DNA from: a plasmid
NCBI RefSeq assembly: GCF_056746865.1
Contig: NZ_JBWKMP010000003.1
DNA length: 64,000 nt
Reading direction: 5' to 3' (one strand)
This document shows positions 3,212-55,996 of the stretch, piece by piece (the first letter of the stretch is position 1; the number at the start of each line of letters is the position of its first letter). Made by a program: the position numbers and the translations under genes. The notes under the pieces are model-generated. The model had not been told where the DNA came from. It saw only the letters and a list, made by a program, of their open reading frames with translations, and did not search any database.

Positions 3212-3818
3212 ATCTAATTATGTTCTTCTTAATTATGATGAGTTAAACGAAAAGGGGCTGGCAAAACTCGTCAAAGAAATCGGTAAAGGAGGCTACAAGA
3301 TAGCGAGGGTGATCCCCGCCAGTAATGGCAGGAAGAAAGACGGGATCATGACGCGCACGTTTACCCTTATCGGAATCGATGAGCAGACGATGGACGTTCA
3401 GGTTAATGATACTGGTGATATTTCTGGTGTAAAACTGAACGGAAAAATTGTTCCTTTCAAGCCAGTTAAAACGCTGATGGCTTTAGGGCAATCACTGGCT
3501 GCTTTATTTAATAAAGGCGCATCATCATTTCAGAAATCATTGGCGCGTAAGTTAGCTCGTGCGGCGAAAGATATTGATGATGGGAATAAGAAAATAAAAG
3601 GCGTTAAGTCCAATGCGCAGAAACTAGCAGAGGCAAAGGAATCTCGCGATGCGATCCGCGAGGATATTGAAAGGGCCAAAGAAAAATTAAATCAGGTGCA
3701 AGGTAATTCAGACCGCGCAACAAGAGAAACTGAAATCATTAGAACCGAGATGGCGCAGGAACTGGCGAAAACTCGCGTATTGAAAGAAGAAATAGCGCGC
3801 CTGGAGGAAGATGCATGA
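3201..3818 (+). CDS. hdf: Hdf-like protein (homologue of a DarA fragment)
   Basis: ATG at 3201 has SD AAGGAG 7 nt upstream. The region ..DGIMTRTFTLIG..VKLNGKIVP..LGQSLAALFNKGASSFQK aligns with DarA ..DGQTTSIIFHSP..FLLNKRNVT..VCQALSNLIERNSAKFKK. Confidence 0.6.
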   Translation: MSNKSNYVLLNYDELNEKGLAKLVKEIGKGGYKIARVIPASNGRKKDGIMTRTFTLIGIDEQTMDVQVNDTGDISGVKLNGKIVPFKPVKTLMALGQSLAALFNKGASSFQKSLARKLARAAKDIDDGNKKIKGVKSNAQKLAEAKESRDAIREDIERAKEKLNQVQGNSDRATRETEIIRTEMAQELAKTRVLKEEIARLEEDA

Positions 3819-5740
3819 TAAAGAAACCTATTCGAATAAATATCCAGTCCACTTTTGCAGATACGCTCACTGGATATACGCCTAATCGTTGGGTGGCGGA
3901 AGATATCACCGAGGATGATTTACTTATCGAGCCTGCGACGCTGGAAGATATCGAGCTGGCCTATATGGGCAACGAAATTTTGGTAACTACCAATGAGGCA
4001 ATGTTCGAAGCTTTAACCACAACAAAATTGCGGTTAGCGCAAACAATGCGAGCATTTGTCCGGGCGCTTAATCGCGGCCTGAATGGCACTGACATTGCTG
4101 CGGGTACGGATGAGGCAGGTGAATATGAAGACGGACGTAATAGTATCGGTGGGGCAATCATTGGGCGCGTGCGCCGGGTTGCTAATATCCCTGTTGTAAC
4201 AGCACAAATACCTCTAACCGATGGACAAACGACAAGCATAATTTTCCATTCTCCAACCGCAGACGGCACAAGAATTAAAGGGGATGACGAGCTGGTTGCG
4301 TTTCAGTTTCTTCTTAACAAAAGAAACGTTACGCATGTTGTTGCGCCAATCGGTGGGCGTGATGTATCTCTGAGCCAGGTGTGTCAGGCGCTTTCTAACC
4401 TCATTGAGCGTAACAGTGCAAAATTCAAAAAAGCAAAGGAGCGCCAGGACAAAATGAAGGCTGATATTGAGGGGTATCTCAATGAAGCCGACAAGCTGGC
4501 AGAAGAACGTTCTGTGCTGATTGAGCAGGTTGAAGACGCACAGCGGGGGCTGGCAGAGAAACGCTCAACACTCAATGATATGCAGAATAAATTAGACGCA
4601 CAAAAAGCCCTTAACGGGGAATTGCAGGCTAAGCGCGATAATTTATTGTCAGCTAAGAGCCAAGGAACTAAAGAGCGTGCCTTCAATGATCAACTGCGAC
4701 ACATAAAACATAATCTTGCTACAGAAGGCCAAACAACGCTGGATAATGGTGCTGTAGTTAAGTATGTCACGTCAGGCAGTGATAGCTTTGTCACGATTGA
4801 GGCACCAGAAGGCAATTTCAGTATTGATGTCAGTGCTGTTAAAGGTGGGAGTTCAGCGGACGCTGCAACCAAATTACTTAAAGCCTATCGTGAACATAAT
4901 GCTGATCAATACAAAGTGGATGTGTTGCCGGGCCAGCCTGAGCCAACTGATCAGCCGCAGCCTGAACAGGAGCCACAACCAGCATCACATCCTGATCCCC
5001 TGGAGGTTGGTAAATATCGCTATGCGCTACAATCTCGCCCGGCGGGTGTTGGTGCGGTTCCTGAAGGAAATAAAGCTGTACTTGACCGTCCTGATCAGGC
5101 TGATCCGTATTACGAATATGCTCGTCACGGAATCATTACGTATGACCGCAAACTGACAGACGAAGAAGTCAGTCAGTACGAATTACGCTATCTGCCTGAT
5201 GACGATGAACTGAGAGGGATGGCGAACGAGCTGGTTGCGTCCAGCATGGTAAAACATATTGATGGCTATGTAGATCTGTTTGGAAGTGACCTGAAAACAT
5301 TCAAGGCGCAAGTTAAAATTCTTTTCCGCAAAGCGTTCCCGAACGTGGCATATCCACTTGGTGATGGGGAGAACCTTTTCATTATGGACGTGTATAACGC
5401 CCTTCAAAATCATTCAAGCGAAGTAAAAACAGATCCTGTAGTTGAGCCAGAATCGCAACCTGCACCAGCACCAGAACAGGAGCCGGAGCCAGAAGAAGCG
5501 GGTGAATCAGCAAGCGAAGCTGACCAGGAAGCAGATAAAGCGCTTGAGTACCTGAAATCCGTTCCGGAGCAGTTCACATCCCGCGATCTGACGGTCATAA
5601 GTGCTGAACTTGATCATGTGCAGGAAGCTGCAAACGCTCTTATCAGTGCTGGTCGATATGACGAGAACGAAGCAACTGTAGGTGCAGCCGTTGACTACCT
5701 GATCAATATTCTGGCTGAAATTCAGCAGGGAGGTGCTTAA
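3815..5740 (+). CDS. darA: DarA-like internal head / antirestriction protein
   Basis: 641 aa (P1 DarA is about 639 aa). Central coiled coil, PQPE-rich linkers, operon position after lydAB-hdf. Confidence 0.65.
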   Translation: MIKKPIRINIQSTFADTLTGYTPNRWVAEDITEDDLLIEPATLEDIELAYMGNEILVTTNEAMFEALTTTKLRLAQTMRAFVRALNRGLNGTDIAAGTDEAGEYEDGRNSIGGAIIGRVRRVANIPVVTAQIPLTDGQTTSIIFHSPTADGTRIKGDDELVAFQFLLNKRNVTHVVAPIGGRDVSLSQVCQALSNLIERNSAKFKKAKERQDKMKADIEGYLNEADKLAEERSVLIEQVEDAQRGLAEKRSTLNDMQNKLDAQKALNGELQAKRDNLLSAKSQGTKERAFNDQLRHIKHNLATEGQTTLDNGAVVKYVTSGSDSFVTIEAPEGNFSIDVSAVKGGSSADAATKLLKAYREHNADQYKVDVLPGQPEPTDQPQPEQEPQPASHPDPLEVGKYRYALQSRPAGVGAVPEGNKAVLDRPDQADPYYEYARHGIITYDRKLTDEEVSQYELRYLPDDDELRGMANELVASSMVKHIDGYVDLFGSDLKTFKAQVKILFRKAFPNVAYPLGDGENLFIMDVYNALQNHSSEVKTDPVVEPESQPAPAPEQEPEPEEAGESASEADQEADKALEYLKSVPEQFTSRDLTVISAELDHVQEAANALISAGRYDENEATVGAAVDYLINILAEIQQGGA

Positions 5741-11273: not shown

Positions 11274-11286
11274 GCTAAAAGCTAGC

Positions 11287-11300
11287 TTAATTTTCTAACA
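11287..11300 (-). promoter_or_regulatory. Operator half-site TTAATTTTCTAACA (C1-type operator candidate)
   Basis: Member of the 18-copy motif family. Lies upstream of the RepL-like gene. Confidence 0.6.
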
Positions 11301-11387
11301 CAGTGTGTTTTTATACACTGTTGATCCGACGGCACGTGATCGAGTAGGATCGCGGTCACTGCTCCGGTAGCGACTGCCAAAAAAAGC

Positions 11388-12435: not shown

Positions 12436-12492
12436 TGTTGCGATTGACTGTACAATAACCGTGCGGCGGGAATTTCATCGCTCGAAAATGTA

Positions 12493-12521
12493 TGTTAGGA
12501 AATTAAATTGATGTTTCTAAT
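12493..12521. promoter_or_regulatory. Inverted operator pair TGTTAGGAAATTAA-a-TTGATGTTTCTAAT
   Basis: Bivalent operator upstream of immI-like module 1, analogous to P1 Op51. Confidence 0.6.
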
Positions 12522-12724
12522 CAAGAATGTATGATTTACATTGTCACTAAAAAACAGCATTTGATAAAAATTCTGTTGATCTTTCTAATGTTCAGGCTTA
12601 TATTCATGCCGTCGTAGCAAATTCTGCGACCAGGTTTGACAGCCTGAATACTTACGCGGACAACCGCACATTTCCGATATTGCGGTATTTTTGTGTCCGT
12701 AAAACCACGTTACGCCCGAATTAT

Positions 12725-12799
12725 GGTGGGGCGTGATGGGGAGGCTTCGGCCTGCTGGTTTCGTAAGTGCCAGTCTGTCAACCCTGTCACGTCCTGCCA
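12725..12799 (+). ncRNA. c4: C4-type antisense immunity RNA, copy 1
   Basis: A 14-17 bp terminal helix (GGGGCGTGATGGGG / CCCTGTCACGTCCT with four G.U pairs) is followed by GCCA. Inside are a UUCG hairpin, a loop containing TCGTAAGT (b') and unpaired CTGTCAA (a'). These complement ACTTACGA (12833-12840, overlapping the icd SD) and TTGACAG (12805-12811). Confidence 0.65.
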
Positions 12800-12850
12800 C
12801 CTGTTTGACAGCGGGTCGCAGGTTGTTTATCAACTTACGAGGCCGTAACT

Positions 12851-13075
12851 ATGGTTAATGCCAATCATTGCTCACGTCCAGAATTCATCTGGCGTTTCCA
12901 CTCCCTGCAAAAACATTGTGATCACTTCGCAATTGCCGCAACTGAAAAAGAAGCCCGTTCTCTGATCCCTGATCAGTATGGCGTTCTCACTGGTCGTTTC
13001 TCTACTTCCCCACAACCAAACACTAATCCCTGGTATCGCAATATTACCAATCCCGGCATTGCGGAGGCTCACTGA
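12851..13075 (+). CDS. icd: Icd-like protein (host cell-division inhibitor family), copy 1
   Basis: 74 aa with the FIWRF..AATEKEARS motif typical of Icd-like proteins. TGATG overlap with the antirepressor gene, as in P1 icd-ant. Confidence 0.7.
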   Translation: MVNANHCSRPEFIWRFHSLQKHCDHFAIAATEKEARSLIPDQYGVLTGRFSTSPQPNTNPWYRNITNPGIAEAH

Positions 13076-13782
13076 TGGATATCTGCATTCTCGAAAAACT
13101 ATCAATGACCAGCATTGAGATTGCGGAGCTGGTGGGAAGTCAACACTCTGACGTTAAACGTAGTATTGAGCGTATGGTTGCTCGAAGCATTATCCGAAAA
13201 CCGCCAATGGCTGTTTTCGAAAAAATCAATAACTTAGGATTGCGTCGTGGCGTTGAGGCTTACGTCTTCGAAGGCGAGCAAGGCAAACGAGACAGCATTA
13301 TTGTCGTTGCGCAGCTCTCTCCCGAATTCACCGCCCGGCTGGTGGACCGCTGGCGCGAACTGGAAGAACAAGTACGCCAGCCGTTGACCGAAATAGAGAT
13401 GATCGCTGCAATGGCTGCGAATGCAGTTCAGCAGCAAAAGCGGCTTCATGCTGTTGAGTCAAAGGTTAGCCAGGTCGCTGAAACCGTCGAGCAGATCAAG
13501 AAAGGCAACATACCAGAAGGCTACATTGGCTACCGCCAACTGGCGGCGAAATGCGGCCTGACTGAAGCCAAATGCCGTAACCTGGTCAACGCTTACCGGA
13601 TCCCCACAGATACGCATGAGTTTTTGACGCCAGAGGGGGTATTGTCGCGTCGTACTATTGTGGCCTTATCTCCCTTCATGAATGCCTTTACCCTGATGAT
13701 GTCGGAGGCTGAACACCGAGGAAAACGCTGGTATCACCCAAGGATGGGGCAATTCCAGGTAATCGGTTGGGGAGGCGAGTGA
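13075..13782 (+). CDS. Rha-family regulatory protein / antirepressor (Ant position), copy 1
   Basis: 235 aa. The N-terminus MTSIEIAELVGSQHSDVKRSIERM.. is the Rha domain pattern. Translationally coupled to icd. Confidence 0.75.
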   Translation: MDICILEKLSMTSIEIAELVGSQHSDVKRSIERMVARSIIRKPPMAVFEKINNLGLRRGVEAYVFEGEQGKRDSIIVVAQLSPEFTARLVDRWRELEEQVRQPLTEIEMIAAMAANAVQQQKRLHAVESKVSQVAETVEQIKKGNIPEGYIGYRQLAAKCGLTEAKCRNLVNAYRIPTDTHEFLTPEGVLSRRTIVALSPFMNAFTLMMSEAEHRGKRWYHPRMGQFQVIGWGGE

Positions 13783-13979
13783 TGGACATCATGCAGGCGG
13801 TAAAAAAAATCGGGGAAGGACAGGCTGAAGTGTGCCGCCGTAAAGCATGGAGTGTTGGTGTATGGGTCTGGCCTGATAATAGCTCTACTACTGGATGGTT
13901 TTGTATTAATGGATACCAGATCCGGGAAGTCGATTTATCGACGGCGGATGCAGTCGGTAATGATTGGATCGTAACTTGA
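13782..13979 (+). CDS. Small DUF2829 (Tad2-like)-type protein
   Basis: 65 aa from the ATG overlapping the Rha stop. Pattern ..RRKAWSVGVWVWP....DWIVT matches the C-terminus fused to the Rha paralogue at 55025-55966. Confidence 0.6.
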   Translation: MDIMQAVKKIGEGQAEVCRRKAWSVGVWVWPDNSSTTGWFCINGYQIREVDLSTADAVGNDWIVT

Positions 13980-13987
13980 AGTGTGAT

Positions 13988-14012
13988 GCCCCGGCTTGGC
14001 CGGGGCTTTTTT
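13988..14012. terminator. Bidirectional intrinsic terminator
   Basis: GCCCCGGC..GCCGGGGC followed by TTTTTT, between convergent genes. Confidence 0.75.
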
Positions 14013-23408: not shown

Positions 23409-23460
23409 GTTGCCTGAGTCTTTTTATTGAAATTGCATACTAATAAAATATGTTAGAAAA

Positions 23461-23474
23461 CTAATTTCAAGAAA
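23461..23474 (+). promoter_or_regulatory. Operator half-site TGTTAGAAAACTAA
   Basis: Lies 11 nt upstream of the 23485 start. Confidence 0.55.
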
Positions 23475-24693: not shown

Positions 24694-24695
24694 TG

Positions 24696-24725
24696 TGTTA
24701 GAAAATTAAAATTGTTTTTCTAACA
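24696..24725. promoter_or_regulatory. Inverted operator pair TGTTAGAAAATTAA-aa-TTGTTTTTCTAACA
   Basis: Bivalent operator abutting the promoter of the RNA island. Confidence 0.65.
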
Positions 24726-24727
24726 TA

Positions 24728-24756: not shown

Positions 24757-24845
24757 TTTTCGTGCTGGTGGGGAGCTTCCCATGTCGCTTGCGGGTTTGA
24801 TAGTCACTTCATTGTCTTTCCCCACCAGCATCAAACAAATTTAAG

Positions 24846-24859
24846 TGTTAGAAAGTAAA
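24846..24859 (+). promoter_or_regulatory. Operator half-site TGTTAGAAAGTAAA
   Basis: Motif family member inside the RNA-island leader. Confidence 0.45.
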
Positions 24860-25129
24860 TTTTAAGGTAAGGGAAAGCTCCGGCACCGTGCAAATACATG
24901 CCCGGCAGGTTTAGTGCGTAAAGTGGTTTCAGCGAGAGCATTTTACGGAGTAAACGACAGTGACTTGAGCCACGGAAGGTCTTTTTATGGTGTTCATTGA
25001 TGATGATCTGGCAGTGAGTATGTTAAGTGGGCCAGGCTGCATCGGGTCATCATCAGTGCACATCCTCAACGTTAAGGAGGCGCAGAGTTGGGTTTTCCTC
25101 TTATTTTGCTGACTCTGAGTCTCCTTAAC

Positions 25130-26039: not shown

Positions 26040-26114
26040 GATGGTGTAGCTCAGTGGTAGAGCAGTTGGCTGTTAACCAACTGGTCGGTGGTTCGAATCC
26101 ATCCACCATCGCCA
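26040..26114 (+). tRNA. tRNA-Asn (anticodon GTT)
   Basis: Full cloverleaf: acceptor GATGGTG/CACCATC, D stem GCTC/GAGC, anticodon stem GTTGG/CCAAC with loop CTGTTAA, T loop TTCGAAT, encoded CCA. Confidence 0.95.
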
Positions 26115-26116
26115 AT

Positions 26117-26192
26117 GCCGGTTTAGCTCAGTTGGTAGAGCGCCTGCCTTGTAAGCAGGATGTCAGCGGTTCGAGTCCGTTAACCGGCACCA
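26117..26192 (+). tRNA. tRNA-Thr (anticodon TGT)
   Basis: Acceptor GCCGGTT/AACCGGC, anticodon stem CCTGC/GCAGG with loop CTTGTAA, T loop TTCGAGT, encoded CCA. Confidence 0.95.
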
Positions 26193-26896: not shown

Positions 26897-26972
26897 GGCC
26901 CTTTAGCTCAGTGGTTAGAGCGGGCGACTCATAATCGCACGATCACCGGTTCAAGTCCGGTAGGGGCCACCA
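26897..26972 (+). tRNA. tRNA with anticodon CAT, ileX-like (tRNA-Ile2 via lysidine, or Met)
   Basis: Very similar to my recollection of E. coli ileX (GGCCC(C/T)TTAGCTCAGTGGTTAGAGC..GGCGACTCATAATCGC..GGTTCAAGTCC..GGGGCCACCA). P1 also encodes such a tRNA. Confidence 0.9.
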
Positions 26973-28000: not shown

Positions 28001-28380
28001 TGTACGAGGCTACTAAATTACGCACTGAGGATGCGATGCACATTGGTTGGGACATCATCACCTGCAAGATAACATCATGCAAGGCTACACGCACAGACGC
28101 CGGACACAAGAGCACAATATCAGGTTATGTCGTGATGTCAGTCAGGAGTGTGCGCATACGCTTCAGATGGAAAGCCTGCCAGGTTACATCATCAATGCCG
28201 CTTACCGTCGAGCAGGATTATTTATGCTTACCCGAAATAGACGGAGCGTTGCTGGTGGGCAATAGTGGTCGAAAAGCCGATTTTGAAGCCAGTCTGAAGA
28301 TGGCGCAGGCGGTGATCAACAAACATAAAGGGAAGTGGGAGGCAAAAGTTAAGCATGTTGTTCGTTTATCCCGCTGGTAG
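28000..28380 (+). CDS. Hypothetical protein
   Basis: TGATG overlap with the upstream gene and SD GGGAGG. 126 aa. Confidence 0.6.
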   Translation: MYEATKLRTEDAMHIGWDIITCKITSCKATRTDAGHKSTISGYVVMSVRSVRIRFRWKACQVTSSMPLTVEQDYLCLPEIDGALLVGNSGRKADFEASLKMAQAVINKHKGKWEAKVKHVVRLSRW

Positions 28381-28410
28381 TGTTAGCAAATTGATATTAA
28401 TTTTCTAATA
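28381..28410. promoter_or_regulatory. Inverted operator pair TGTTAGCAAATTGA-ta-TTAATTTTCTAATA
   Basis: Upstream of the Lpa-position gene. In P1, lpa is operator-controlled. Confidence 0.6.
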
Positions 28411-28487
28411 CATCATGTTTTTGACAGTCTTCTCAGTATTAACAAGCTGATTATCATCCCCTCGGTCTTTTTCTATCCGGGGGATAA

Positions 28488-31786: not shown

Positions 31787-32824
31787 TTACCAGAGTTTTG
31801 CCGCGTACATCGTTTGTGTGAATGTGTACCCATAGCGTTCTTCAACGCTTTTACCGTATTTTTTCCTGGCTTCAGTAAGGCGGATGCCTGTCAGGTCATC
31901 GCCGGAGGCAATCATAACTTCCAGTAGTTCCAGGTCCATTTTATCCAGCCTTGCCATTGCATCTTTAGCCTCTTGAATTTTCCGGCTAACGATCTGGTGT
32001 ATGGCTGGATCGGCTTCGGCCAGCATTTTATCTGATTTGTTTTTTAAACTCTGATTGCGGATATCAATGTTTCTCAGGATATATGACTTCACGACGTAGC
32101 TTGGCTGCTGCTTTTCCAGATCACGAACCCGATAAAGGTCAAATTCGCCGAGAAGTCCGCACGGAAGCGGTTTAATGCCAGTGTAAATGGTAAGGGTGCG
32201 GCGCTCACCAACGTTGTTAACAACGGGAATCTCTGTGTTTGCTTTTTTTGCAAAGATCAGCGCACCGTGCGTACCCACTCTGAAGCGTGAAAGTCCATTG
32301 TTGCCCTCAATATTGGTGGTAATCACCACATCGGTATAACCTTCTTTTCTTGCGCGGTATACCTCGCCCTCACGTTCAGCGGCGAAGAATCTGCGTTCTT
32401 CTTCAAGCGCACCGACAACCTGTGAAAATATCCTGTTTTTCATGCTTTTCTTTATAGTTTTATCGTATTTTTTCAGCAGGTCTTCGCGCGTAAATGTTCT
32501 CGTTGTGGTTGCGCTTTGCATAACGATGTGCGTACTCTGATTAGTATCCTCAACAATGAATGGGATCGGTAAATAAACCGACTCAACAATGTTTGAGGCT
32601 TTGTCATCATCCTTGCGACACAGATCAACAAAGGCTTTCCATTCGGCTATGCATTTTTCAGCTTCTTCTAATACAGCCGGATCATGTGTTAATGCAACAT
32701 GGCGAAATTCCTCGCCAACATAACTGGTATCATGGAAAACAGAGTTTGCGACCACCAGCTCTTTCCACCTTTCAGCGGTTTGCAGGAACCGTTTGTACTC
32801 ATTCTCGATCGACTTCTTACTCAT
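31787..32824 (-). CDS. Candidate primary immunity repressor (c1 position)
   Basis: ATG at 32824 (SD AGGA) gives 345 aa. It lies between pacB and the rox/dre locus, exactly where P1 c1 lies, with operator half-sites in its upstream region. I saw no sequence similarity to P1 C1. Confidence 0.4.
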   Translation of the reverse strand: MSKKSIENEYKRFLQTAERWKELVVANSVFHDTSYVGEEFRHVALTHDPAVLEEAEKCIAEWKAFVDLCRKDDDKASNIVESVYLPIPFIVEDTNQSTHIVMQSATTTRTFTREDLLKKYDKTIKKSMKNRIFSQVVGALEEERRFFAAEREGEVYRARKEGYTDVVITTNIEGNNGLSRFRVGTHGALIFAKKANTEIPVVNNVGERRTLTIYTGIKPLPCGLLGEFDLYRVRDLEKQQPSYVVKSYILRNIDIRNQSLKNKSDKMLAEADPAIHQIVSRKIQEAKDAMARLDKMDLELLEVMIASGDDLTGIRLTEARKKYGKSVEERYGYTFTQTMYAAKLW

Positions 32825-32838
32825 TATTCCTACTCGAT

Positions 32839-32852
32839 TTAGTTTTCTAACA
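32839..32852 (-). promoter_or_regulatory. Operator half-site TTAGTTTTCTAACA
   Basis: Lies 15 nt upstream of the c1-candidate start (autoregulation, as with P1 Op99). Confidence 0.55.
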
Positions 32853-32926
32853 TAAAAGTCCTGTGACAAATTTATGCTGAATAACAAGGTGAGTAAAGGA
32901 TAAAACCGCTTTTTTTTGATTGTTCC

Positions 32927-33204: not shown

Positions 33205-34233
33205 ATGGGTGAACTAGTTATCTCCGGCGGTTCTGGTGGTTTTCTGCGCGATATTGGCACCGAATACCAGGAAGCTGCAAAAAACTTTATGCAGTTCATG
33301 AACGACCAGGGAGCTTATGCTCCAAATACGCTTCGAGATCTCCGTCTGGTGTTTCATTCCTGGGCGCGGTGGTGTAATTCGCGCCAGCGCCCCTGGTTCC
33401 CGATTACGCCGGAAATGGCCCGCGAGTATCTTCTCCAGTTGCATGAGGCCGATCTGGCCTCGACCACCATTGATAAGCACTATGCCATGCTTAACATGCT
33501 GCTTTCGCAATGTGGCCTCCCGCCGCTGTCGGACGATAAAAGTGTGTCTCTGGCCATGCGGCGCATCCGGCGCGAAGCGGCAACGGAAAAAGGCGAGCGA
33601 ACAGGCCAGGCTATACCGTTGCGGTGGGATGATCTGAAATTGCTCGACGTGTTGCTGTCCCGTTCCGAGCGGCTGGTGGACCTGCGCAATCGGGCGTTTC
33701 TCTTCGTGGCATACAATACCCTGATGCGTATGTCAGAAATCTCGCGCATCCGCGTCGGAGATCTGGACCAAACAGGTGACACTGTAACGCTGCATATTTC
33801 ACACACGAAGACCATCACGACCGCCGCCGGACTTGATAAGGTGCTTTCTCGTTACACTACCGCCGTACTGAACGACTGGCTGGAGGTGTCCGGACTTCGA
33901 GAACATCCGGACGCGGTGCTATTCCCGCCAATACACCGCAGTAATAAGGCCAGAATCACGACAACGCCCCTTACTGCACCTGCAATGGAGAAAATATTCA
34001 GCGATGCCTGGGGGTTGCTGAACAAACGAGATGCCACGCCGAACAAAGGAAGATACCGGACGTGGACAGGCCATAGTGCGCGTGTTGGTGCGGCAATTGA
34101 TATGGCTGAGAAACAGGTGTCAATGGTCGAGATCATGCAGGAAGGTACATGGAAAAAGCCCGAAACACTTATGCGATATTTGCGCCGTAGCGGGGCATCC
34201 GTTGGTGCAAATAGTCGCCTGATGGACTCATAA
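33205..34233 (+). CDS. dre: Dre-type (Cre-like) tyrosine site-specific recombinase
   Basis: 342 aa, collinear with P1 Cre (..HSWARWC..WFP.., ..AYNTLMRMSEISRIRV.., ..WTGHSARVGAA.DMA..). Near-identical to my recollection of D6 Dre. Confidence 0.92.
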   Translation: MGELVISGGSGGFLRDIGTEYQEAAKNFMQFMNDQGAYAPNTLRDLRLVFHSWARWCNSRQRPWFPITPEMAREYLLQLHEADLASTTIDKHYAMLNMLLSQCGLPPLSDDKSVSLAMRRIRREAATEKGERTGQAIPLRWDDLKLLDVLLSRSERLVDLRNRAFLFVAYNTLMRMSEISRIRVGDLDQTGDTVTLHISHTKTITTAAGLDKVLSRYTTAVLNDWLEVSGLREHPDAVLFPPIHRSNKARITTTPLTAPAMEKIFSDAWGLLNKRDATPNKGRYRTWTGHSARVGAAIDMAEKQVSMVEIMQEGTWKKPETLMRYLRRSGASVGANSRLMDS

Positions 34234-34234
34234 A

Positions 34235-34248
34235 TTAATTTTCTAACA
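34235..34248 (-). promoter_or_regulatory. Operator half-site TTAATTTTCTAACA
   Basis: Immediately after the dre stop and upstream of the 34306 operon. Confidence 0.55.
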
Positions 34249-34305
34249 ACCTTTTTAGACAGTGCATTTTAATGTAAAGTACCCTCGCCTATTGCGGAGG
34301 GTACT

Positions 34306-34650
34306 TTGCACAATCGTATTACGGAATCAAAACGCTTCACTGTTGACGGTTACACCATAACCTTCACTGCGGGCGTTAAGCGCGACCAGGCGGTCGTGGT
34401 GTTCGGTGTTATGACCGGACTTGATGCCGTTCCCGTATTTACCCTCGAAAAAAACTGGCGAAATCTGGAGGAAGCTGAACGCTACGTCCGGAAAGTAACC
34501 GTCATTGCTGCTGAAAAACTCCTGGCCCACTATCAGGAAAATTATCGCGCTATGACCGAGAAAATTAACCATGTTTTCACTCGCCCCACCAGCGGCTTCA
34601 TTGCCCCTGATGCGAATGCCGGGCGCTATCCGGCAAGGGGGCGCAAATGA
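34306..34650 (+). CDS. Hypothetical protein (TTG start)
   Basis: 114 aa. SD GGAGGG lies 4 nt upstream but inside hairpin GTACCCTC..GGAGGGTAC. Confidence 0.5.
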   Translation: MHNRITESKRFTVDGYTITFTAGVKRDQAVVVFGVMTGLDAVPVFTLEKNWRNLEEAERYVRKVTVIAAEKLLAHYQENYRAMTEKINHVFTRPTSGFIAPDANAGRYPARGRK

Positions 34651-48228: not shown

Positions 48229-48270
48229 AATGTATACCGACTCTGTTTTGTTCCGAGCGGTAAAATAATA

Positions 48271-48300
48271 TGTTAGAAAATTAAAATCAATATTCTAACA
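48271..48300. promoter_or_regulatory. Inverted operator pair TGTTAGAAAATTAA-aa-TCAATATTCTAACA
   Basis: Lies in the 100-bp gap between two leftward gene blocks. Confidence 0.65.
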
Positions 48301-48332
48301 CGGTTTTGAGTGCATAAACGATGTGTTCAGGA

Positions 48333-53302: not shown

Positions 53303-53346
53303 CATGACCTCCTGATATAGCGTCTGAAAAAAGTATCTTCATTTTG

Positions 53347-53376
53347 TGTTAGAAAATCAATTTTGATTTTCTAACA
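53347..53376. promoter_or_regulatory. Perfect palindromic operator pair TGTTAGAAAATCAA-tt-TTGATTTTCTAACA
   Basis: Lies in the divergent control region between the leftward operon and ref. In P1, ref is C1-controlled. Confidence 0.7.
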
Positions 53377-53421
53377 CTTTTGATCAACCATAGCGGCGAT
53401 GTAGACAAACCGGGTATTTCT

Positions 53422-53997
53422 ATGAAGCAAAGCTATTGGGAGAAACAGACACAAAAAGCCCTGCAAAAACTGGCTGATCCGAAATGGCGGGAGGAACAAA
53501 GGGCAAAGCGTCTTCAGCAAGCTCAACGCCAGCAGCAGCGTGCGCGAGAAAAAGCCGCATCGCCTGAATATCGGCAAAAGAAAATTGAAAAAGCGAAGCA
53601 ATATGAACAGCGAAGAAAAGAGAAGGCCGCTTCTGCTCCTGTCAAAAAAACTCGCGCGTCACGCGGCCTGAAAGGCAGAACACTCACAGCAGATGAGCGC
53701 CGGATACAAACTGCCATCGGTGCTCTCCCCTGCATTGCCTGCCATATGCACGGACAGCATAGCCCTGTGGTATCCCTGCACCACATCTTCGGGAGAACAG
53801 CAGAAAACGCGCATAAATACGTCCTCCCTTTGTGTAAATGGCACCATCAACACGCAGCGCCAGCAGAGATCCGCGAGCAATACCCCTGGTTGGTTCCTGT
53901 TCATGCTGATGGAAAAATAGGCGGCAAAGCAGATTTCAGGCGGCACAATGCTGATGAAATGACGTTGTATCAGATGGTGACTGAATTAATAAATTAA
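53422..53997 (+). CDS. ref: Ref-family recombination enhancement nuclease (HNH)
   Basis: Lys/Arg/Gln-rich N-terminal ~95 aa, then LPCIACH..HHIFG....LPLCKWHHQ (HNH/zinc pattern of Ref). The ATG at 53422 is preferred to the TTG at 53380, which abuts the operator. Confidence 0.75.
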   Translation: MKQSYWEKQTQKALQKLADPKWREEQRAKRLQQAQRQQQRAREKAASPEYRQKKIEKAKQYEQRRKEKAASAPVKKTRASRGLKGRTLTADERRIQTAIGALPCIACHMHGQHSPVVSLHHIFGRTAENAHKYVLPLCKWHHQHAAPAEIREQYPWLVPVHADGKIGGKADFRRHNADEMTLYQMVTELIN

Positions 53998-54007
53998 TTT
54001 TCTAACA
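53994..54007 (-). promoter_or_regulatory. Operator half-site TTAATTTTCTAACA
   Basis: Overlaps the ref stop and lies upstream of immI-like module 2. Confidence 0.55.
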
Positions 54008-54328
54008 TTTTAAGTTGAATTGTGAAATTCGCCGTTGTACATTCACAACCGATTGGTACACCGGTCAACTTTTTGAGACAAACCGTTTGGTTTTTCGTAT
54101 GATTGCCGCCGCCATACCAATGGCGGTGCAATATAGGTGGCTGAAAAGCCCCCGTTGACTCACGGTGTTCCAACCTTTATTGCGCCGCCACCAGACCGTG
54201 GAACAGTCGATGGCGGCTCCGAAAGCAAGGAGTCACTACACTATGAACAGCTACTGTCTTTTCCCATCACTCGTTATCCGCCACTCACGCGATAATCTGC
54301 ATTCTTTACTCGCGCTGGGGGTGTCAAA

Positions 54329-54496
54329 ATGACCGTTCGCTATCTCAACTTTCAAATCCAGAACATCACTGGCGGTTGCTATGACTGGTTTGTCACTCTC
54401 GGAAAAGAAGTGATCACCGGGAAGCTGGATGAAGTGAAAGCTAAAGCAATGGCCTACGCCTGCAAGCAAGCCCAAAAGAAGAAAAGAAAAGCATAA
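54329..54496 (+). CDS. Candidate 55-aa protein in the immI-2 leader (below track cutoff)
   Basis: MTVRYLNFQIQNITGGCYDWFVTLGKEVITGKLDEVKAKAMAYACKQAQKKKRKA. The ATGA overlaps a 29-codon upstream ORF (54243-54332). Confidence 0.4.
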   Translation: MTVRYLNFQIQNITGGCYDWFVTLGKEVITGKLDEVKAKAMAYACKQAQKKKRKA

Positions 54497-54601
54497 GAAA
54501 ACACACAGTTGCGCCCTGGCATTATCGTGGGGTATATTTCTACGGCACCTTAGAAAAACGGGTGCCGGGATTGGAACCCCGGATAATGTCAAAGGCGACA
54601 C

Positions 54602-54624
54602 AGACGCCGAACGCGTCTTTTTTT
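54602..54624 (+). terminator. Intrinsic terminator between the a1/b1 sites and c4 copy 2
   Basis: AGACGC-CGAAC-GCGTCT followed by TTTTTTT. Confidence 0.75.
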
Positions 54625-54673
54625 GTGTCATGCCATCGCACAGCCATACTTAGCGTTTAGCTCAGAGATCAAT

Positions 54674-54753
54674 GGTAGTGCTGGCTGGGCTGCCGAAAGG
54701 CAGGCCGGTTCCCTTTGACGCCGGTAGTTCCAACCCAGTCAGTGCTACCGCCA
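54674..54753 (+). ncRNA. c4: C4-type antisense immunity RNA, copy 2
   Basis: A 16-bp terminal helix GGTAGTGCTGGCTGGG / CCCAGTCAGTGCTACC (three G.U pairs) is followed by GCCA. Inside are a GAAA-tetraloop hairpin, a loop with CCTTTGAC (b') and unpaired GTTCCAA (a'). These complement GTCAAAGG (54791-54798, overlapping the icd SD) and TTGGAAC (54760-54766). It is 80 nt, compared with about 77 nt for P1 C4. Confidence 0.7.
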
Positions 54754-54809
54754 TTGAGATTGGAACCTCACGCGGTAGCTCCTTAACTTAGTCAAAGGAG
54801 GCTGCCAAT

Positions 54810-55025
54810 ATGGCTACTATCCCTACCCCAACTCATTCTGAATTTATCTGGCGTTTCTATTCCTGCCAAAAACACCTTTATATCTGCGTAATGGCTGCTA
54901 CCGAAGCAGAGGCGCGCTCATACCTTCCCGAAGAACCCTGCATTTTTGCTGCTCGCTTCACTCTTGATGCGATGGAGATCCTCAATTACTGGAATCTGCC
55001 AATGAACTGCGTGGAGGTGCACTGA
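54810..55025 (+). CDS. icd: Icd-like protein, copy 2
   Basis: 71 aa with EFIWRFYSCQKH..AATEAEARS. TGATG overlap with the downstream antirepressor gene. Confidence 0.7.
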   Translation: MATIPTPTHSEFIWRFYSCQKHLYICVMAATEAEARSYLPEEPCIFAARFTLDAMEILNYWNLPMNCVEVH

Positions 55026-55966
55026 TGAATCTGTCCATCTCTCAAAAAGCGACAATGACCAGCATTGAGATCGCGGAACTGGTAGGAAGTCGCCCAGATA
55101 GTGTGAAGAGAACTATCGAAACACTGGCTAAAAAGAGTGTGATTCAATTTCCACAATCTGTGGAAATTGAAAATAAACAATCAGTTGGCCCTCGTCGATT
55201 TTCCAAGGCTTACATCTTTGAAGGCGAACAAGGAAAACGAGACAGCATCATTGTCGTCGCGCAGCTCTCTCCGGAATTTACCGCCCGGCTGGTGGACCGC
55301 TGGCGCGAACTGGAGAATGCCCGGGTACAGTTAAAATCCAAAGCCGAAATCCTGGCCGAAATGGCGCAAATGCATCTTGAGCATGAACGCCGGATCAACG
55401 CCGTTAATGCCCAGGTAGCCGAAGTATCGGCACAAGTGTCCAGGGTCACCGAAACACTTGAGCAGATCAAGAAAGGCAATATTCCAGAAGGCTACATTGG
55501 CTATCGCCAGTTGGCGGCAAAATGCGGCCTGACTGAAGCCAAATGCCGCAACCTGGTCAACGCTTACCGGATACCCACTGATACGCATGAGTTTTTAACT
55601 CCCGACGGTTTGCTTGCGCGACGCTCCATTGTGGCCCTGGCCCCCTTCCGGAAAGCCTTTAAGCAGGTTATGTCGGAGGCAGAACCACGTAACAAACGCT
55701 GGTATCATCCCAGGATGGGGCTATTTCAGGCCATTCACCATCCTGTGCCTGAAAGTCCAAAGGCAAACCTGTCGTTGCATACCGCCAGAGAGAAGATTAA
55801 AACAGGGTATGCAACCGTATGCCGTCGAGCATCCTGGCCTGAAAGTGTCTGGGTATGGCCCGAAAGAGGCTCACGGAAAAACTGGCGCACCATTCGCGAC
55901 GGCAAGATCTGTGCGATTGATTTACAGCCAGAAGATGTAGCAGCGACCGACTGGATTGTTAGTTAA
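55025..55966 (+). CDS. Rha-family antirepressor fused to a C-terminal DUF2829-like domain, copy 2
   Basis: 313 aa. The N-terminal 230 aa are paralogous to 13075-13782. The C-terminal ~65 aa (..VCRRASWPESVWVWP...ATDWIVS) are paralogous to the separate gene 13782-13979. Confidence 0.8.
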   Translation: MNLSISQKATMTSIEIAELVGSRPDSVKRTIETLAKKSVIQFPQSVEIENKQSVGPRRFSKAYIFEGEQGKRDSIIVVAQLSPEFTARLVDRWRELENARVQLKSKAEILAEMAQMHLEHERRINAVNAQVAEVSAQVSRVTETLEQIKKGNIPEGYIGYRQLAAKCGLTEAKCRNLVNAYRIPTDTHEFLTPDGLLARRSIVALAPFRKAFKQVMSEAEPRNKRWYHPRMGLFQAIHHPVPESPKANLSLHTAREKIKTGYATVCRRASWPESVWVWPERGSRKNWRTIRDGKICAIDLQPEDVAATDWIVS

Positions 55967-55973
55967 TAGATTT

Positions 55974-55996
55974 GCCCCGGTCATGCCGGGGCTTTA
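55974..55996 (+). terminator. Hairpin / weak terminator after immI-2
   Basis: GCCCCGG-TCATG-CCGGGGC followed by TTTAAC. Confidence 0.45.

What the first reader, a model, noticed from the sequence alone, without database searches (positions are those of the whole stretch)
53994..55966. A second immI-like module with different, non-cross-matching C4 recognition sequences
Copy 2 has the same architecture as copy 1 but different specificity determinants. Site a1 (TTGGAAC) is at 54571-54577 and b1 (GTCAAAGG) is at 54588-54595. The c4 RNA spans 54674-54753, with a' (GTTCCAA) at 54727-54733 and b' (CCTTTGAC) at 54712-54719. Site a2 (TTGGAAC) is at 54760-54766. Site b2 (GTCAAAGG) is at 54791-54798 and overlaps the SD AAGGAGG of the second icd. 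Helix lengths, tetraloop hairpins (UUCG versus GAAA) and the GCCA tail are conserved between copies, while the antisense boxes differ completely. In P1 versus P7, such differences define heteroimmunity. This genome therefore carries two apparently orthogonal antirepressor switches, each behind a C1-type operator. That could allow two independent induction or anti-immunity inputs, or it could be a relic of recombination between heteroimmune phages.
Basis: partly seen in the sequence, partly recalled or inferred. Interest (0 to 1): 0.75.

Follow-up and report, generated by a model that had tools for sequence, protein, structure and literature searches.

The report
Second antisense-RNA antirepressor switch, D6-like plasmid
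This D6-like phage-plasmid really does carry a second small-RNA-controlled "antirepressor" cassette whose recognition sequences do not match the first, but such multi-cassette arrangements are conserved across its relatives and had already been noted, so this is a well-supported new example rather than a new kind of system.

Summary
**Observation:** Confirmed. Every motif is at the stated coordinates. Rfam calls a C4 antisense RNA at 54668-54755 (77 bits) and at 12719-12804 (70 bits).

**Identity:** The window is a D6-like phage-plasmid, 100% identical to E. coli plasmid NZ_LR890273.1 over the region compared.

**Anatomy of module 2:** own promoter, IsrK-type leader (a1, b1, terminator), C4, a2, b2 over the SD, Icd-like ORF, coupled Rha/Roi-type Ant.

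**Function:** Natural covariation argues strongly for function.
- The window and D6 are 97% identical here, but differ by coordinated 2-nt changes in a1, a' and a2 and in b1, b' and b2.
- Across 69 related loci, four a×b allele combinations keep perfect matching in 68.
- Module 1 has P1's C4 stems and a-box, with a b-box unlike either P1 or P7.

**Orthogonality:** Predicted cross-pairing between the modules is no better than with random sequence.

- No P1-consensus C1 operator exists. A D6-type 21-bp motif sits upstream of both modules, but 560 bp from module 2's a1.
- A third, sub-threshold C4-like element (54116-54195) lies between that motif and module 2.
- The Ants are not P1 Ant1 homologs.

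**Novelty:** The duplication is conserved in about 90 plasmids and in D6, and was already noted for pYU39_89. Verdict: new member of a known kind, moderate interest.

The parts
53989..54009 (+). D6-type operator-like site (ATAAATTAATTTTCTAACATT) at the 3' end of ref. It is the putative C1-like repressor site upstream of the module-2 region.
   Evidence: Held-out PWM score 26.8 against a maximum of 21.8 in 20 shuffles. About 16 such sites occur in the window. These include a palindromic pair upstream of ref and one next to the C1-like gene. Repressor binding is inferred, not shown.
54015..54043 (+). Weak candidate sigma-70 promoter, TTGAAT-17-TACATT (8/12), just downstream of the operator-like site.
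   Evidence: Read from the sequence. Both hexamers are conserved in D6 while the spacer varies. It falls below the threshold of the scan tool.
54116..54195 (+). Third, sub-threshold C4-like RNA element ('c4-3'). It has a GAAA hairpin, a short b' loop (UUGACUCA), an a' of UGUUCCA(A) and a GCCA tail.
   Evidence: Rfam C4 at 42.3 bits (gathering score 45), E 1.7e-6. It folds into the C4 shape with z = -5.3. It is conserved in D6 at 40.2 bits and nearly invariant in 23 loci. It always lies about 553 nt upstream of the module-2 C4.
54329..54496 (+). Small conserved ORF (55 aa; D6 orf85 homolog) between c4-3 and the module-2 leader. It is preceded by a 29-aa ORF at 54243-54332 whose SD overlaps a 6-nt match to the c4-3 loop.
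   Evidence: phrog_7786 at 9e-42, function unknown.
54509..54538 (+). Candidate proximal promoter of module 2, TTGCGC-18-TATATT. It would start transcription at about 54545, the first base of the IsrK model.
   Evidence: Read from the sequence. It is 100% conserved in D6 although the sequence just upstream diverges. Homology with RCS47 begins exactly here. It contains no operator-like motif.
54545..54623 (+). IsrK-type leader RNA. It carries a1 (54571-54577, in a hairpin loop), b1 (54588-54595) and an intrinsic terminator (stem 54602-54618 plus a T-run).
   Evidence: Rfam isrK RF01394 at 61.3 bits against a gathering score of 50. The terminator was found by the scan. a1 and b1 co-vary with a' and b' across alleles.
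54668..54755 (+). C4 antisense RNA of module 2, with b' at 54712-54719 in the loop of hairpin 2 and a' at 54727-54733 in the single-stranded joint.
   Evidence: Rfam C4 at 77.1 bits, E 2.4e-13. MFE -46.5 kcal/mol, z = -5.0.
54760..54801 (+). Target region on the icd mRNA: a2 (54760-54766), b2 (54791-54798) and the SD AAGGAGG (54795-54801).
   Evidence: Perfect 7- and 8-nt complements of a' and b'. Duplex energies are -9.4 and -13.0 kcal/mol, in the tail of the null. Spacing matches P1's annotated a2/b2.
54810..55025 (+). icd-like ORF (71 aa).
   Evidence: NCBIfam NF033153 phage_ICD_like at 49.4 bits against a cutoff of 25. It is 56% identical to P1 Icd.
55025..55966 (+). ant-like ORF (313 aa) of Rha/Roi type. 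Its start overlaps the icd stop (UGAUG). The C-terminal 65 aa form a domain that is a separate ORF in module 1.
   Evidence: phrog_63 'anti-repressor Ant' at 3.5e-58. Pfam Phage_pRha at 26.4 bits, below the cutoff of 29.9. It is 65% identical to the module-1 Ant. The C-terminal domain is 40% identical to ORF 13767-13979. It has no similarity to P1 Ant1 or Gifsy-1 AnrP.
55974..55995 (+). Terminator-like GC hairpin (GCCCCGG-TCATG-CCGGGGC, then TTT) that closes the operon.
   Evidence: Read from the sequence. It resembles the hairpin after module 1 at 13988-14006, which the scan did call. It was not called here because the T-run is short.
12491..12511 (-). Companion module 1: D6-type operator-like site overlapping the -35 of the distal promoter-like site at 12508-12535. 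This is the same layout as P1 Oc4/P2c4.
   Evidence: Held-out PWM score 24.2. Promoter-like sites at 12508-12535 and 12576-12604. P1 layout.
12598..12839 (+). Companion module 1 RNA part: the c4-a1b1 leader (a1 at 12636-12642, b1 at 12650-12656), C4 at 12719-12804 (b' at 12762-12768, a' at 12775-12781), a2 at 12805-12811 and b2 at 12833-12839.
   Evidence: Rfam c4-a1b1 at 55.2 bits and C4 at 69.6 bits. Box positions. The C4 stems are identical to P1, the a-box is the P1 allele, and the b-box ACTTACG differs from both P1 and P7.
12851..13979 (+). Companion module 1 cargo: icd-like ORF (12851-13075), ant (13075-13782, 235 aa) and a separate 70-aa ORF (13767-13979).

Best explanation
**What it is.** Module 2 (about 54509-55995) is a functional C4-type riboregulated icd-ant operon of the IsrK/C4 subclass. 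It is orthogonal to the P1-type module 1 at 12.5-14 kb.

**Proposed mechanism.**
1. Transcription starts at the proximal promoter (54509-38). It may also arrive by read-through from an upstream promoter guarded by a D6-type operator.
2. Part of the transcripts stop at the leader terminator. This gives a roughly 80-nt IsrK-like RNA carrying a1 and b1.
3. Read-through transcripts contain C4. By analogy with P1, C4 is cut out (RNase P at the 5' end) into a stable RNA of about 80 nt.
4. C4's exposed a' and b' pair with a2 and b2, burying the icd Shine-Dalgarno sequence.
5. Without icd translation, the coupled ant (UGAUG overlap) is not translated. By analogy with P1, transcription is then subject to Rho polarity.
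6. The antirepressor is therefore kept off, both in the lysogen and on any incoming genome of the same specificity.
7. The a1/b1 leader competes for the same C4 loops, in cis or as a free decoy. It thereby sets the threshold of the switch.

**Specificity.** It resides in the 7-nt a box and the 8-nt b box, which evolve as coordinated triplets.

**Shown here:**
- The anatomy.
- Family membership of the RNAs and of Icd.
- Three-way covariation of the boxes.
- Lack of predicted cross-pairing between modules.
- Conservation across relatives.

**Inferred:**
- RNA processing.
- Repression in trans.
- The decoy role of the leader.
- Control by the C1-like repressor.
- That this Ant acts on the C1-like repressor.
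For: **Family membership.**
- Rfam C4 at 77.1 bits and isrK at 61.3 bits, adjacent and in the right order.
- Feature-by-feature correspondence with P1's annotated Oc4/P1c4/a1/b1/c4/a2/b2/icd/ant.
- Icd-like ORF passes NF033153.

**Covariation.**
- Window versus D6 (97% identical): all differences inside the RNA boxes are compensatory. a1/a2 TTGGAAC pairs with TTGAGAC in D6. a' GTTCCAA pairs with GTCTCAA. b1/b2 GTCAAAGG pairs with GCAAAAGG. b' CCTTTGAC pairs with CCTTTTGC.
- In 69 IMG/VR loci, four a×b allele combinations occur. Both targets match both loops perfectly in 68.
- A fifth allele shows compensating stem changes.
- The same rule holds in 113 of 113 P1-type loci, with 12 allele combinations.

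**Orthogonality.** Cognate duplexes of -9 to -15 kcal/mol lie in the tail of a random-15-mer null (fraction 0.0007-0.07). Cross duplexes of -3 to -8 lie in its bulk (0.07-0.75).

**Conservation.**
- D6 carries both modules.
- About 91 plasmids carry a full module 2, nearly all with a second matching place, as expected for the module-1 ant paralog.
- At least 15 of 19 contigs of 75 kb or more with module 2 also carry a P1-type C4.

**Experimental precedent for this subclass.**
- In Gifsy-1, isrK is directly followed by a true C4 (69 bits) in front of anrP.
- The published compensatory mutants IsrK G28A/C162U and G31A/C159U fall in what I identify as a1 and a' (PMC4825925).
Against: **No direct evidence.** There are no expression or processing data for this element or for D6.

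**Weak promoters.** The proximal promoter is a weak consensus match (8/12) and was not called by the scan.

**Competing published model.** The Gifsy-1 study explained its data with a different model. There the leader RNA acts in trans as an activator, and an ORF overlapping C4 (orf45) is translated. Constitutive expression of the C4-containing RNA did not relieve IsrK toxicity. An analogous 39-aa ORF (54672-54791) overlaps C4 here.

**Uncertain cargo function.** The Ant is not homologous to P1 Ant1/2 or to AnrP, so its target is unknown.

**Possible added regulator.** The third C4-like element shares the a' box and has appreciable predicted pairing with module-2 targets (-7.5 to -11.9 kcal/mol). 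Regulation may therefore be more complex than a single C4.
Confidence: 0.75

Rival explanations
1. IsrK-type positive control. The short leader RNA is the active regulator. It pairs in trans with the C4 region of the long, self-folded and translationally silent mRNA and opens it. Translation of a small ORF overlapping C4, then icd and ant, follows. In this reading C4 acts mainly in cis as an mRNA structure, not as a processed trans repressor.
For: - The leader is an IsrK-family RNA with its own terminator.
- This model was proposed from experiments on the homologous Gifsy-1 locus (PMC4825925).
- I showed that the Gifsy-1 locus contains the same isrK-C4 unit.
- A 39-aa ORF (54672-54791) overlaps C4, as orf45 does in Gifsy-1.
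- a1 and b1 co-vary with a' and b', as this model requires.
Against: - a2 and b2 co-vary just as strictly, and b2 covers the icd SD. The repressor model explains this. The cis-structure model does not require it.
- C4 has the tRNA-like closing stem and GCCA tail of the processed P1 RNA.
- A stable processed species of about 80 nt (STnc1160) exists in Gifsy-1.
- The two models are not exclusive. A decoy leader titrating a trans-acting C4 would reproduce the activation seen in Gifsy-1.
Confidence: 0.2
2. Module 2 is a decaying or silent relic of recombination between heteroimmune phages and has no present function.
For: - Its cassette is mobile. The same promoter-leader-C4-icd 5' segment sits at a different place, in front of a different ant, in the P1-like phage RCS47.
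- Related cassettes occur in lambdoid Stx phages.
- Two relatives have deletions that remove it (L198, L199).
Against: - All ORFs are intact.
- The module is present in D6 and about 90 plasmids.
- Box changes are always compensated at all three sites: 68 of 69 loci, and 12 coordinated substitutions between the window and D6. This requires ongoing selection on pairing.
Confidence: 0.04
3. The modules are not fully independent. The third C4-like RNA (54116-54195), made from the operator-guarded upstream promoter, co-represses module 2 through its shared a' box. Alternatively, partial a-box similarity lets C4-1 and C4-2 cross-talk weakly.
For: - c4-3 has a' UGUUCCAA, identical to C4-2's a' core in this genome.
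- Its predicted duplexes with module-2 a1/a2/b2 are -11.9, -10.2 and -9.2 kcal/mol.
- It is almost invariant across relatives and always 553 nt upstream.
- C4-2's a' against module-1 a1 gives -7.9 kcal/mol, fraction 0.066 of the null.
Against: - In D6 and most relatives, module 2 carries the other a-allele (TTGAGAC) or c4-3 carries GUUCCAG. The shared box is therefore not conserved.
- c4-3 is below Rfam's gathering score.
- Its own candidate targets match by only 6 nt.
- In P1 and P7, 2+2 nt differences go with heteroimmunity (PMC6906374). The 3/7 plus unrelated-b difference between modules 1 and 2 should therefore suffice.
Confidence: 0.12
4. The cargo proteins are not antagonists of the element's own C1-like repressor. 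They may be Rha/Roi-type regulators acting on DNA, or antirepressors aimed at the repressors of other resident prophages. Two modules would then serve inter-phage conflict rather than two induction inputs.
For: - Both Ants have an N-terminal Rha-type DNA-binding domain.
- They belong to a PHROG shared with lambdoid phages (lambdoid Roi/antirepressor matches).
- Neither is related to P1 Ant1.
- The RNA cassette is found in front of three unrelated cargo families: Ant1-type in RCS47, Rha-type here and AnrP in Gifsy-1.
- The C1-like protein is only 21.6% identical to P1-type C1.
Against: - Position, icd coupling and operon layout are those of P1 immI.
- In Gifsy-1 the unrelated cargo AnrP does induce its own prophage (PMC4825925).
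- Nothing here bears on protein targets either way.
Confidence: 0.3

Closest known systems
P1/P7 immI operon (Oc4-P2c4-P1c4, a1, b1, c4, a2, b2, icd, ant1/2)
   Same: - Order and spacing of all RNA features.
- C4 fold and GCCA tail.
- b2 over the icd SD.
- Icd homolog, 56% identical.
- icd/ant start-stop overlap.
- Specificity carried by short a and b boxes that differ between heteroimmune relatives (P1 versus P7, 2+2 nt).
   Different: - The leader is IsrK-type with a canonical intrinsic terminator.
- C4 sequence is only distantly similar to P1 C4.
- Ant is Rha/Roi-type, not Ant1/2.
- No P1-consensus operator. The operator-like site is about 560 bp upstream, with a third C4-like element and two ORFs in between.
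- It is a second copy in a genome that also has a P1-type module.
Gifsy-1 isrK-orf45(STnc1160)-anrP locus (Hershko-Shalev et al. 2016, PMC4825925)
   Same: - IsrK-family leader with terminator, directly followed by a C4-family RNA and then an antirepressor-type gene.
- a1:a' pairing is supported there by compensatory mutants.
- A processed RNA of about 80 nt is reported.
   Different: - Gifsy-1 has no icd. b2 covers the anrP SD directly.
- AnrP is unrelated to this Ant.
- Different box sequences.
- Lambdoid chromosomal prophage next to antQ rather than a plasmid prophage.
- The published mechanism is activation by IsrK, not repression by C4.
[quoted passage not shown]
   Same: Orthologous locus: same genes and context (ref ... 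icd-like, ant, pmgF), 90-97% identical. The duplication itself is already annotated or mentioned.
   Different: - The window carries a different specificity allele in both boxes.
- The RNAs are not annotated in D6. A minus-strand 'orf84' is called across them.
- I found no analysis of specificity. The D6 genome paper could not be read.
P4 CI RNA with seqA/seqC targets
   Same: A processed small RNA flanked upstream and downstream by complementary target sequences in the same transcript, controlling expression of downstream genes. The IsrK authors cite it as a structural analog.
   Different: According to that paper, P4 CI acts by causing premature transcription termination of replication genes, not by masking the SD of an icd-ant operon. 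I did not examine it by sequence here.

Membership tests
Rfam RF01695 C4 antisense RNA | Covariance-model score at or above the curated gathering score (45 bits) | tested here: met
   77.1 bits, E 2.4e-13, full-length model match at 54668-54755. Copy 1 scores 69.6 bits. The third element at 54116-54195 scores 42.3 bits and does NOT meet it.
Rfam RF01695 C4 antisense RNA | Long closing stem enclosing two hairpins, with b' in the loop of hairpin 2 and a' in the single-stranded joint before the 3' strand | tested here: met
   cmscan alignment and independent MFE folding, z = -5.0.
Rfam RF01695 C4 antisense RNA | Complementary target boxes in the same transcript, upstream (a1, b1) and downstream (a2, b2), with b2 overlapping the SD of the next ORF | tested here: met
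   Perfect 7- and 8-nt complements at all four sites. They co-vary across alleles.
Rfam RF01695 C4 antisense RNA | Excision from the precursor (RNase P at the 5' end) and repression in trans | not testable with these tools
   Only the tRNA-like stem and the GCCA tail are visible in the sequence.
P1-type immI operon | Gene order c4 - icd - ant, with the icd stop overlapping the ant start | tested here: met
   54668-54755, 54810-55025, 55025-55966. Compare P1.
P1-type immI operon | Icd homolog | tested here: met
   NF033153 at 49.4 bits (cutoff 25). 56% identity to P1 Icd.
P1-type immI operon | Ant1/Ant2-type antirepressor | tested here: not met
   tblastn of P1 Ant1 against the whole window gave no hit at E <= 1e-3. 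The ORF is Rha/Roi-type, phrog_63.
P1-type immI operon | C1 operator of P1 consensus (ATTGCTCTAATAAATTT) at the distal promoter | tested here: not met
   0 matches with up to 3 mismatches in 64 kb.
P1-type immI operon | Control by the element's own C1-like repressor through a cognate operator | tested here: inconclusive
   A 21-bp motif repeated about 16 times precedes both modules, with held-out scores 26.8 and 24.2 against a shuffle maximum of 21.8. It also flanks ref and the C1-like gene. Binding was not tested. For module 2 the site is 560 bp from a1, and the proximal promoter has no such motif.
Rfam RF01394 isrK / Gifsy-1 isrK locus | isrK covariance-model score at or above the gathering score (50 bits), including the terminal intrinsic terminator | tested here: met
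   61.3 bits, model positions 1-77, at 54545-54623. Terminator at 54602-54618 plus T-run.
Rfam RF01394 isrK / Gifsy-1 isrK locus | Followed by the complementary processed RNA (STnc1160, which is a C4) and an antirepressor-type gene | tested here: met
   Same order here and in Gifsy-1, where I located C4 at 34214-34131 between isrK and anrP.
Rfam RF01394 isrK / Gifsy-1 isrK locus | AnrP-type cargo | tested here: not met
   BLASTP of Ant-2 against Gifsy-1 STM2616 found no significant similarity; best E 0.41.
Rfam RF01394 isrK / Gifsy-1 isrK locus | Adjacent antQ antiterminator operon | not tested
   The window was not searched for an AntQ/Q-type antiterminator. The D6 annotation of the orthologous stretch lists ref, small hypothetical ORFs, icd-like, ant and pmgF, and no antiterminator.
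Rfam RF01394 isrK / Gifsy-1 isrK locus | Hfq binding and trans-activation by the short RNA | not testable with these tools
   Experimental properties reported only for Gifsy-1 (PMC4825925).

The most novel reading that the evidence does not exclude
P1/D6-like phage-plasmids draw on a combinatorial natural library of C4 specificities. I saw at least 3 a × 2 b alleles for the IsrK-type cassette, of which five combinations were observed, and 2 a × 7 b alleles for the P1-type. Each genome carries two or three mutually non-matching cassettes, placed in front of unrelated antirepressor cargos. In each cassette the a1/b1 leader (IsrK) would act as a cognate sponge for its own C4. This would unify P1 immI and Gifsy-1 IsrK as one three-RNA switch. 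It would also make these plasmids carriers of several independent, population-level polymorphic immunity 'channels'.
Probability: 0.3. Interest if true: 0.6.

Novelty: new member of a known kind. Interest (0 to 1): 0.4.

Why it matters
C4-type antisense control of antirepressors is the textbook basis of P1/P7 heteroimmunity. Showing that a D6-like plasmid prophage carries two working cassettes with non-matching specificity bears on three things:
- How phage-plasmids, which are common carriers of resistance genes in E. coli and Salmonella, exclude or tolerate one another.
- The unresolved role of the a1/b1 sites, still annotated as 'putative' in P1.
- A possible source of naturally orthogonal RNA repressor/target pairs.

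The specificity boxes are polymorphic and always co-vary at three sites. The same kind of RNA cassette is the experimentally studied IsrK locus of Salmonella Gifsy-1, so two literatures that do not cite each other appear to describe one mechanism.

The existence of the second module is not new, so the value lies in the comparative evidence rather than in a new kind of system.

Tried and rejected
**Searches that found nothing.**
- The P1 C1-operator consensus gave 0 hits with up to 3 mismatches. I replaced it with a de novo motif built from TTTCTAA-containing sites, leaving out the sites next to the two modules to avoid circularity.
- Pfam gives no family for either Icd-like ORF or for the 70-aa ORF. 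NCBIfam and PHROGs do.
- P1 Ant1 homology and AnrP homology for Ant-2 were both negative.

**Papers not available.**
- The D6 genome paper (PMC5800970 / 10.1016/j.virol.2017.12.019) is not held.
- The P1 genome paper (PMC523184) is not held.
- I therefore cannot say what Gilcrease and Casjens wrote about the two regions. P1 facts come from the GenBank annotation and from general knowledge.

**Ideas tested and dropped or left open.**
- From memory I suspected the C-terminal domain of Ant-2 was DUF2829-like. Pfam gave no such hit, so I dropped the idea.
- The 'relic' reading is rejected on conservation and covariation.
- 'Co-resident C4 copies always differ in specificity' holds in 7 of 7 genomes. 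My rough calculation from allele frequencies puts the chance probability at about 0.05-0.2, so this is suggestive only.
- Covariation in c4-3 could not be assessed because the element is nearly invariant.

Full report
**1. Observation**

All sequence statements of the finding are correct.
- a1 TTGGAAC is at 54571-54577 and b1 GTCAAAGG at 54588-54595.
- b' CCTTTGAC is at 54712-54719 and a' GTTCCAA at 54727-54733.
- a2 is at 54760-54766. b2 is at 54791-54798 and overlaps AAGGAGG, 12 nt before the ATG at 54810.

Rfam, at curated thresholds, calls the following:
- C4 antisense RNA at 54668-54755 (77.1 bits, E 2.4e-13) and at 12719-12804 (69.6 bits).
- The c4-a1b1 leader motif at 12598-12650.
- The IsrK sRNA family at 54545-54623 (61.3 bits).

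Both C4s fold into the canonical shape, far better than shuffled sequence does. The ordered a...b pair occurs only at the two expected places per module.

**2. What the genome is**

The region is about 90% identical to phage D6. Positions 54500-55966 are 100% identical to E. coli plasmid NZ_LR890273.1 (92.8 kb). The window is therefore part of a D6-like plasmid prophage.

D6 has both modules, annotated as two 'Icd-like' plus 'anti-repressor Ant' pairs. D6 does not annotate the RNAs. A minus-strand 'orf84' is called across the leader and C4.

About 91 plasmids carry a full-length module 2. Nearly all have a second matching place, as expected for the module-1 ant paralog.

[quoted passage not shown] A second icd-ant set is also reported for a P1-like plasmid (PMC6906374). 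I could not read the D6 genome paper.

**3. Anatomy of module 2 and its surroundings**

In order along the + strand:
- **Ref gene**, 53380-53997 (Pfam RecA_dep_nuc).
- **Operator-like 21-mer**, 53989-54009.
- **Weak candidate promoter**, 54015-54043.
- **Third C4-like element**, 54116-54195. Rfam gives 42.3 bits, just under the gathering score of 45, with E 1.7e-6. The fold has z = -5.3.
- **Two small ORFs**, 54243-54332 and 54329-54496.
- **Candidate proximal promoter**, TTGCGC-18-TATATT at 54509-54538. It would start transcription at the first base of the IsrK model.
- **IsrK-type leader**, with a1 in a hairpin loop, b1, and an intrinsic terminator at 54602-54618 plus a T-run.
- **C4**, then a2 and b2/SD.
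- **icd-like ORF**. It passes NF033153 at 49.4 bits and is 56% identical to P1 Icd.
- **ant**, whose start overlaps the icd stop.
- **Terminator-like hairpin**, 55974-55995.

Spacings mirror P1's annotated immI.

Homology with the P1-like phage RCS47 starts exactly at the -35 of the proximal promoter and ends inside icd. In RCS47 the cassette lies between pacB and c1. It sits in front of an Ant1-type gene that is 54% identical to P1 Ant1. The promoter-leader-C4-target unit therefore behaves as a portable cassette.

**4. Evidence that the pairing is functional**

*Window versus D6.* The two are 97% identical over 53975-54830. Inside the RNA part the differences are coordinated:

| Box | Window | D6 |
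|---|---|---|
| a1 and a2 | TTGGAAC | TTGAGAC |
| a' | GTTCCAA | GTCTCAA |
| b1 and b2 | GTCAAAGG | GCAAAAGG |
| b' | CCTTTGAC | CCTTTTGC |

*Module-2-type loci.* In 69 parsable IMG/VR loci sharing this C4 stem, all four a×b combinations occur (counts 25, 19, 18 and 7). In 68 of 69, a1 = a2 = rc(a') and b1 = b2 = rc(b'). Two further loci show a third a-allele (AGACCAA/TTGGTCT) with compensating stem changes.

*P1-type loci.* The P1-type C4 behaves the same way. It has 2 a-alleles and 7 b-alleles, giving 12 observed combinations, with perfect matching at all four targets in 113 of 113 loci.

*Module 1 here.* It has P1's C4 stems and P1's a-box. Its b-box (ACTTACG/CGTAAGT) differs from both P1 (GTTAGTG) and P7 (GATTGTG).

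This three-site covariation is natural compensatory-mutation evidence that the leader sites, as well as the RBS sites, pair with C4.

**5. Orthogonality**

Modules 1 and 2 differ at 3 of 7 a' positions, and their b' boxes are unrelated. P1 and P7 differ by 2+2 nt and are reported as heteroimmune (PMC12197685, PMC6906374).

| Pairing | Duplex energy (kcal/mol) | Fraction of random window 15-mers at least as stable |
|---|---|---|
| Cognate loop-box | -8.6 to -15.2 | 0.0007 to 0.07 |
| Cross | -3.3 to -7.9 | 0.07 to 0.75 |

This is a prediction, not a measurement.

At population level:
- At least 15 of 19 near-complete contigs with a module-2-type C4 also hold a P1-type C4.
- Seven genomes hold 2-3 P1-type C4s, and the alleles differ in every case.
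- By my rough calculation from allele frequencies, that last pattern has a chance probability of about 0.05-0.2. It is suggestive only.

**6. The operator claim**

The P1 operator consensus is absent from the whole window.

A de novo motif, consensus TAAAATTAATTTTCTAACACA, shares the AT-rich half of the P1 operator. It occurs about 16 times, including:
- A palindromic pair just upstream of ref. P1's ref is also under C1 control, by my recollection of the P1 literature, which I did not check here.
- A site next to a distant C1 homolog at 32806-32114, which is 21.6% identical with E 3e-7.
- One site upstream of each module. These were left out of the model. They score 26.8 and 24.2, against a shuffle maximum of 21.8.

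For module 1 the site overlaps the -35 of the distal of two promoter-like sites, exactly as Oc4/P2c4 does in P1. For module 2 the site is 560 bp upstream, and the proximal promoter has no such motif. 'Each behind a C1-type operator' is therefore plausible but inferred, and looser for module 2.

**7. Link to IsrK**

In Gifsy-1, Rfam places the following on the minus strand:
- isrK at 34316-34240 (79 bits). This stretch is also matched by c4-a1b1 at 48 bits.
- A true C4 at 34214-34131 (69 bits), inside what was called orf45/STnc1160.
- Then anrP.

The Gifsy-1 boxes are a1/a2 TTGGCGT, a' ACGCCAA, b' CGGTGA and b2 TCACCGGAGG over the anrP SD.

IsrK residues G28 and G31 lie in a1. Their published compensatory partners are C162 and C159 (PMC4825925), which I place in a'. 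That paper notes that IsrK and STnc1160 are complementary, and it compares them with P4 seqA/CI. In my term search it did not mention phage P1.

Module 2 is thus the same RNA unit as the only experimentally dissected IsrK locus, with a different cargo. AnrP is unrelated to Ant-2.

**8. Proteins**

- Ant-2 (313 aa) and Ant-1 (235 aa) are 65% identical paralogs.
- Both match phrog_63 'anti-repressor Ant' and Pfam Phage_pRha. The Pfam score is above the cutoff only for Ant-1.
- Ant-2's last 65 residues correspond to the separate 70-aa ORF at 13767-13979 of module 1 (40% identical, phrog_7385).
- Neither is related to P1 Ant1. Their target is unknown.

**9. Mechanism and verdict**

*Best explanation (confidence 0.75).* This is a functional C4-type translational repressor cassette for icd-ant.
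- Its specificity is independent of module 1.
- Its a1/b1 leader is made as an IsrK-like short RNA that competes for C4.

*Rivals.*
- IsrK-style activation with C4 acting in cis. This is not exclusive of the best explanation.
- Partial cross-talk through the third C4-like element.
- A cargo aimed at other repressors.
- A relic. This one is disfavoured.

*Novelty.* The system is a new member of a known kind. The second module is conserved and was already noticed. I did not find three things described in the papers I could search:
- The allele-level covariation.
- The third C4-like element.
- The identification of the leader as IsrK-type, including the C4 within Gifsy-1 'orf45'.

Noticed in passing
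window 54116-54195 (+): A third C4-like RNA element, just below Rfam's gathering score (42.3 against 45 bits). It has the C4 fold, a GAAA tetraloop, a GCCA tail and the same a' core as module 2's C4. It is nearly invariant in 23 D6-like loci and always about 553 nt upstream of the module-2 C4. Its candidate targets are TGGAACA at 54200-54206 and GAGTCA over the SD of a 29-aa ORF.
   Followed up: partly
window, about 16 sites, e.g. 11282-11302, 23449-23469, 24694-24727, 24844-24864, 28379-28412, 32834-32854, 34230-34250, 48269-48302, 53345-53378, 53989-54009, 12491-12511: A repeated 21-bp motif, TAAAATTAATTTTCTAACACA. It is probably the operator of the D6-type C1-like repressor. Its AT-rich half resembles the P1 operator. 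It occurs as a palindromic pair in front of ref.
   Followed up: partly
window 32114-32830 (-): A distant C1-repressor homolog: 21.6% identity to RCS47 C1 over 241 aa, E 3e-7. It matches phrog_1678, function unknown. An operator-like site lies immediately upstream.
   Followed up: partly
window 13767-13979 versus 55769-55966: The C-terminal domain of about 65 aa in Ant-2 is a separate ORF in module 1 (phrog_7385, function unknown). This is a fusion or split difference between the two paralogous cargos.
   Followed up: partly
IMG/VR loci L078-L196; P1 L002; P7 L077: P1-type C4 RNAs form a combinatorial allele set: 2 a-boxes × 7 b-boxes, with 12 combinations seen. All four targets match perfectly in 113 of 113 loci. 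Some P1-like contigs carry 2-3 such C4 copies, always with different alleles.
   Followed up: partly
L202 (Gifsy-1 NC_010392) 34131-34329 (-): The published 'orf45/STnc1160' region downstream of isrK is a bona fide C4-family RNA (69 bits). isrK is also matched by the c4-a1b1 model (48 bits). The Gifsy-1 IsrK system and P1 immI therefore appear to be the same RNA device.
   Followed up: yes
L003 (RCS47 NC_042128) 3524-5135: The P1-like phage RCS47 carries an unannotated module-2-type leader plus C4 (a' GTCTCAA, b' CCTTTGAC). It lies between pacB and c1, in front of a second ant gene of Ant1 type.
   Followed up: partly
L001 (D6) 3619-3918 (-): D6's annotated hypothetical 'orf84' lies antisense across the IsrK-type leader and the C4 RNA. 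It is probably a spurious gene call.
   Followed up: no
L198, L199 (IMG/VR): Two D6-like contigs keep the third C4-like element but have deletions that remove most or all of module 2.
   Followed up: no
window 54672-54791 (+) and 12693-12848 (+): Small ORFs of 39 and 51 aa overlap each C4 RNA and end just before the icd start. They are positionally analogous to Gifsy-1 orf45, which was reported as translated.
   Followed up: no
window 26040-26111, 26117-26189, 26897-26969 (+): Three tRNA genes.
   Followed up: no
L004 (Stx2 phage F039) 2521-2790: A lambdoid isrK-C4 cassette with yet another specificity (a TTAGGAC, b AATCAAGG). Its b1 copy matches through a G·U wobble. The downstream ORF begins MATIP..., like Icd-2, but continues into a 215-aa protein.
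   Followed up: no
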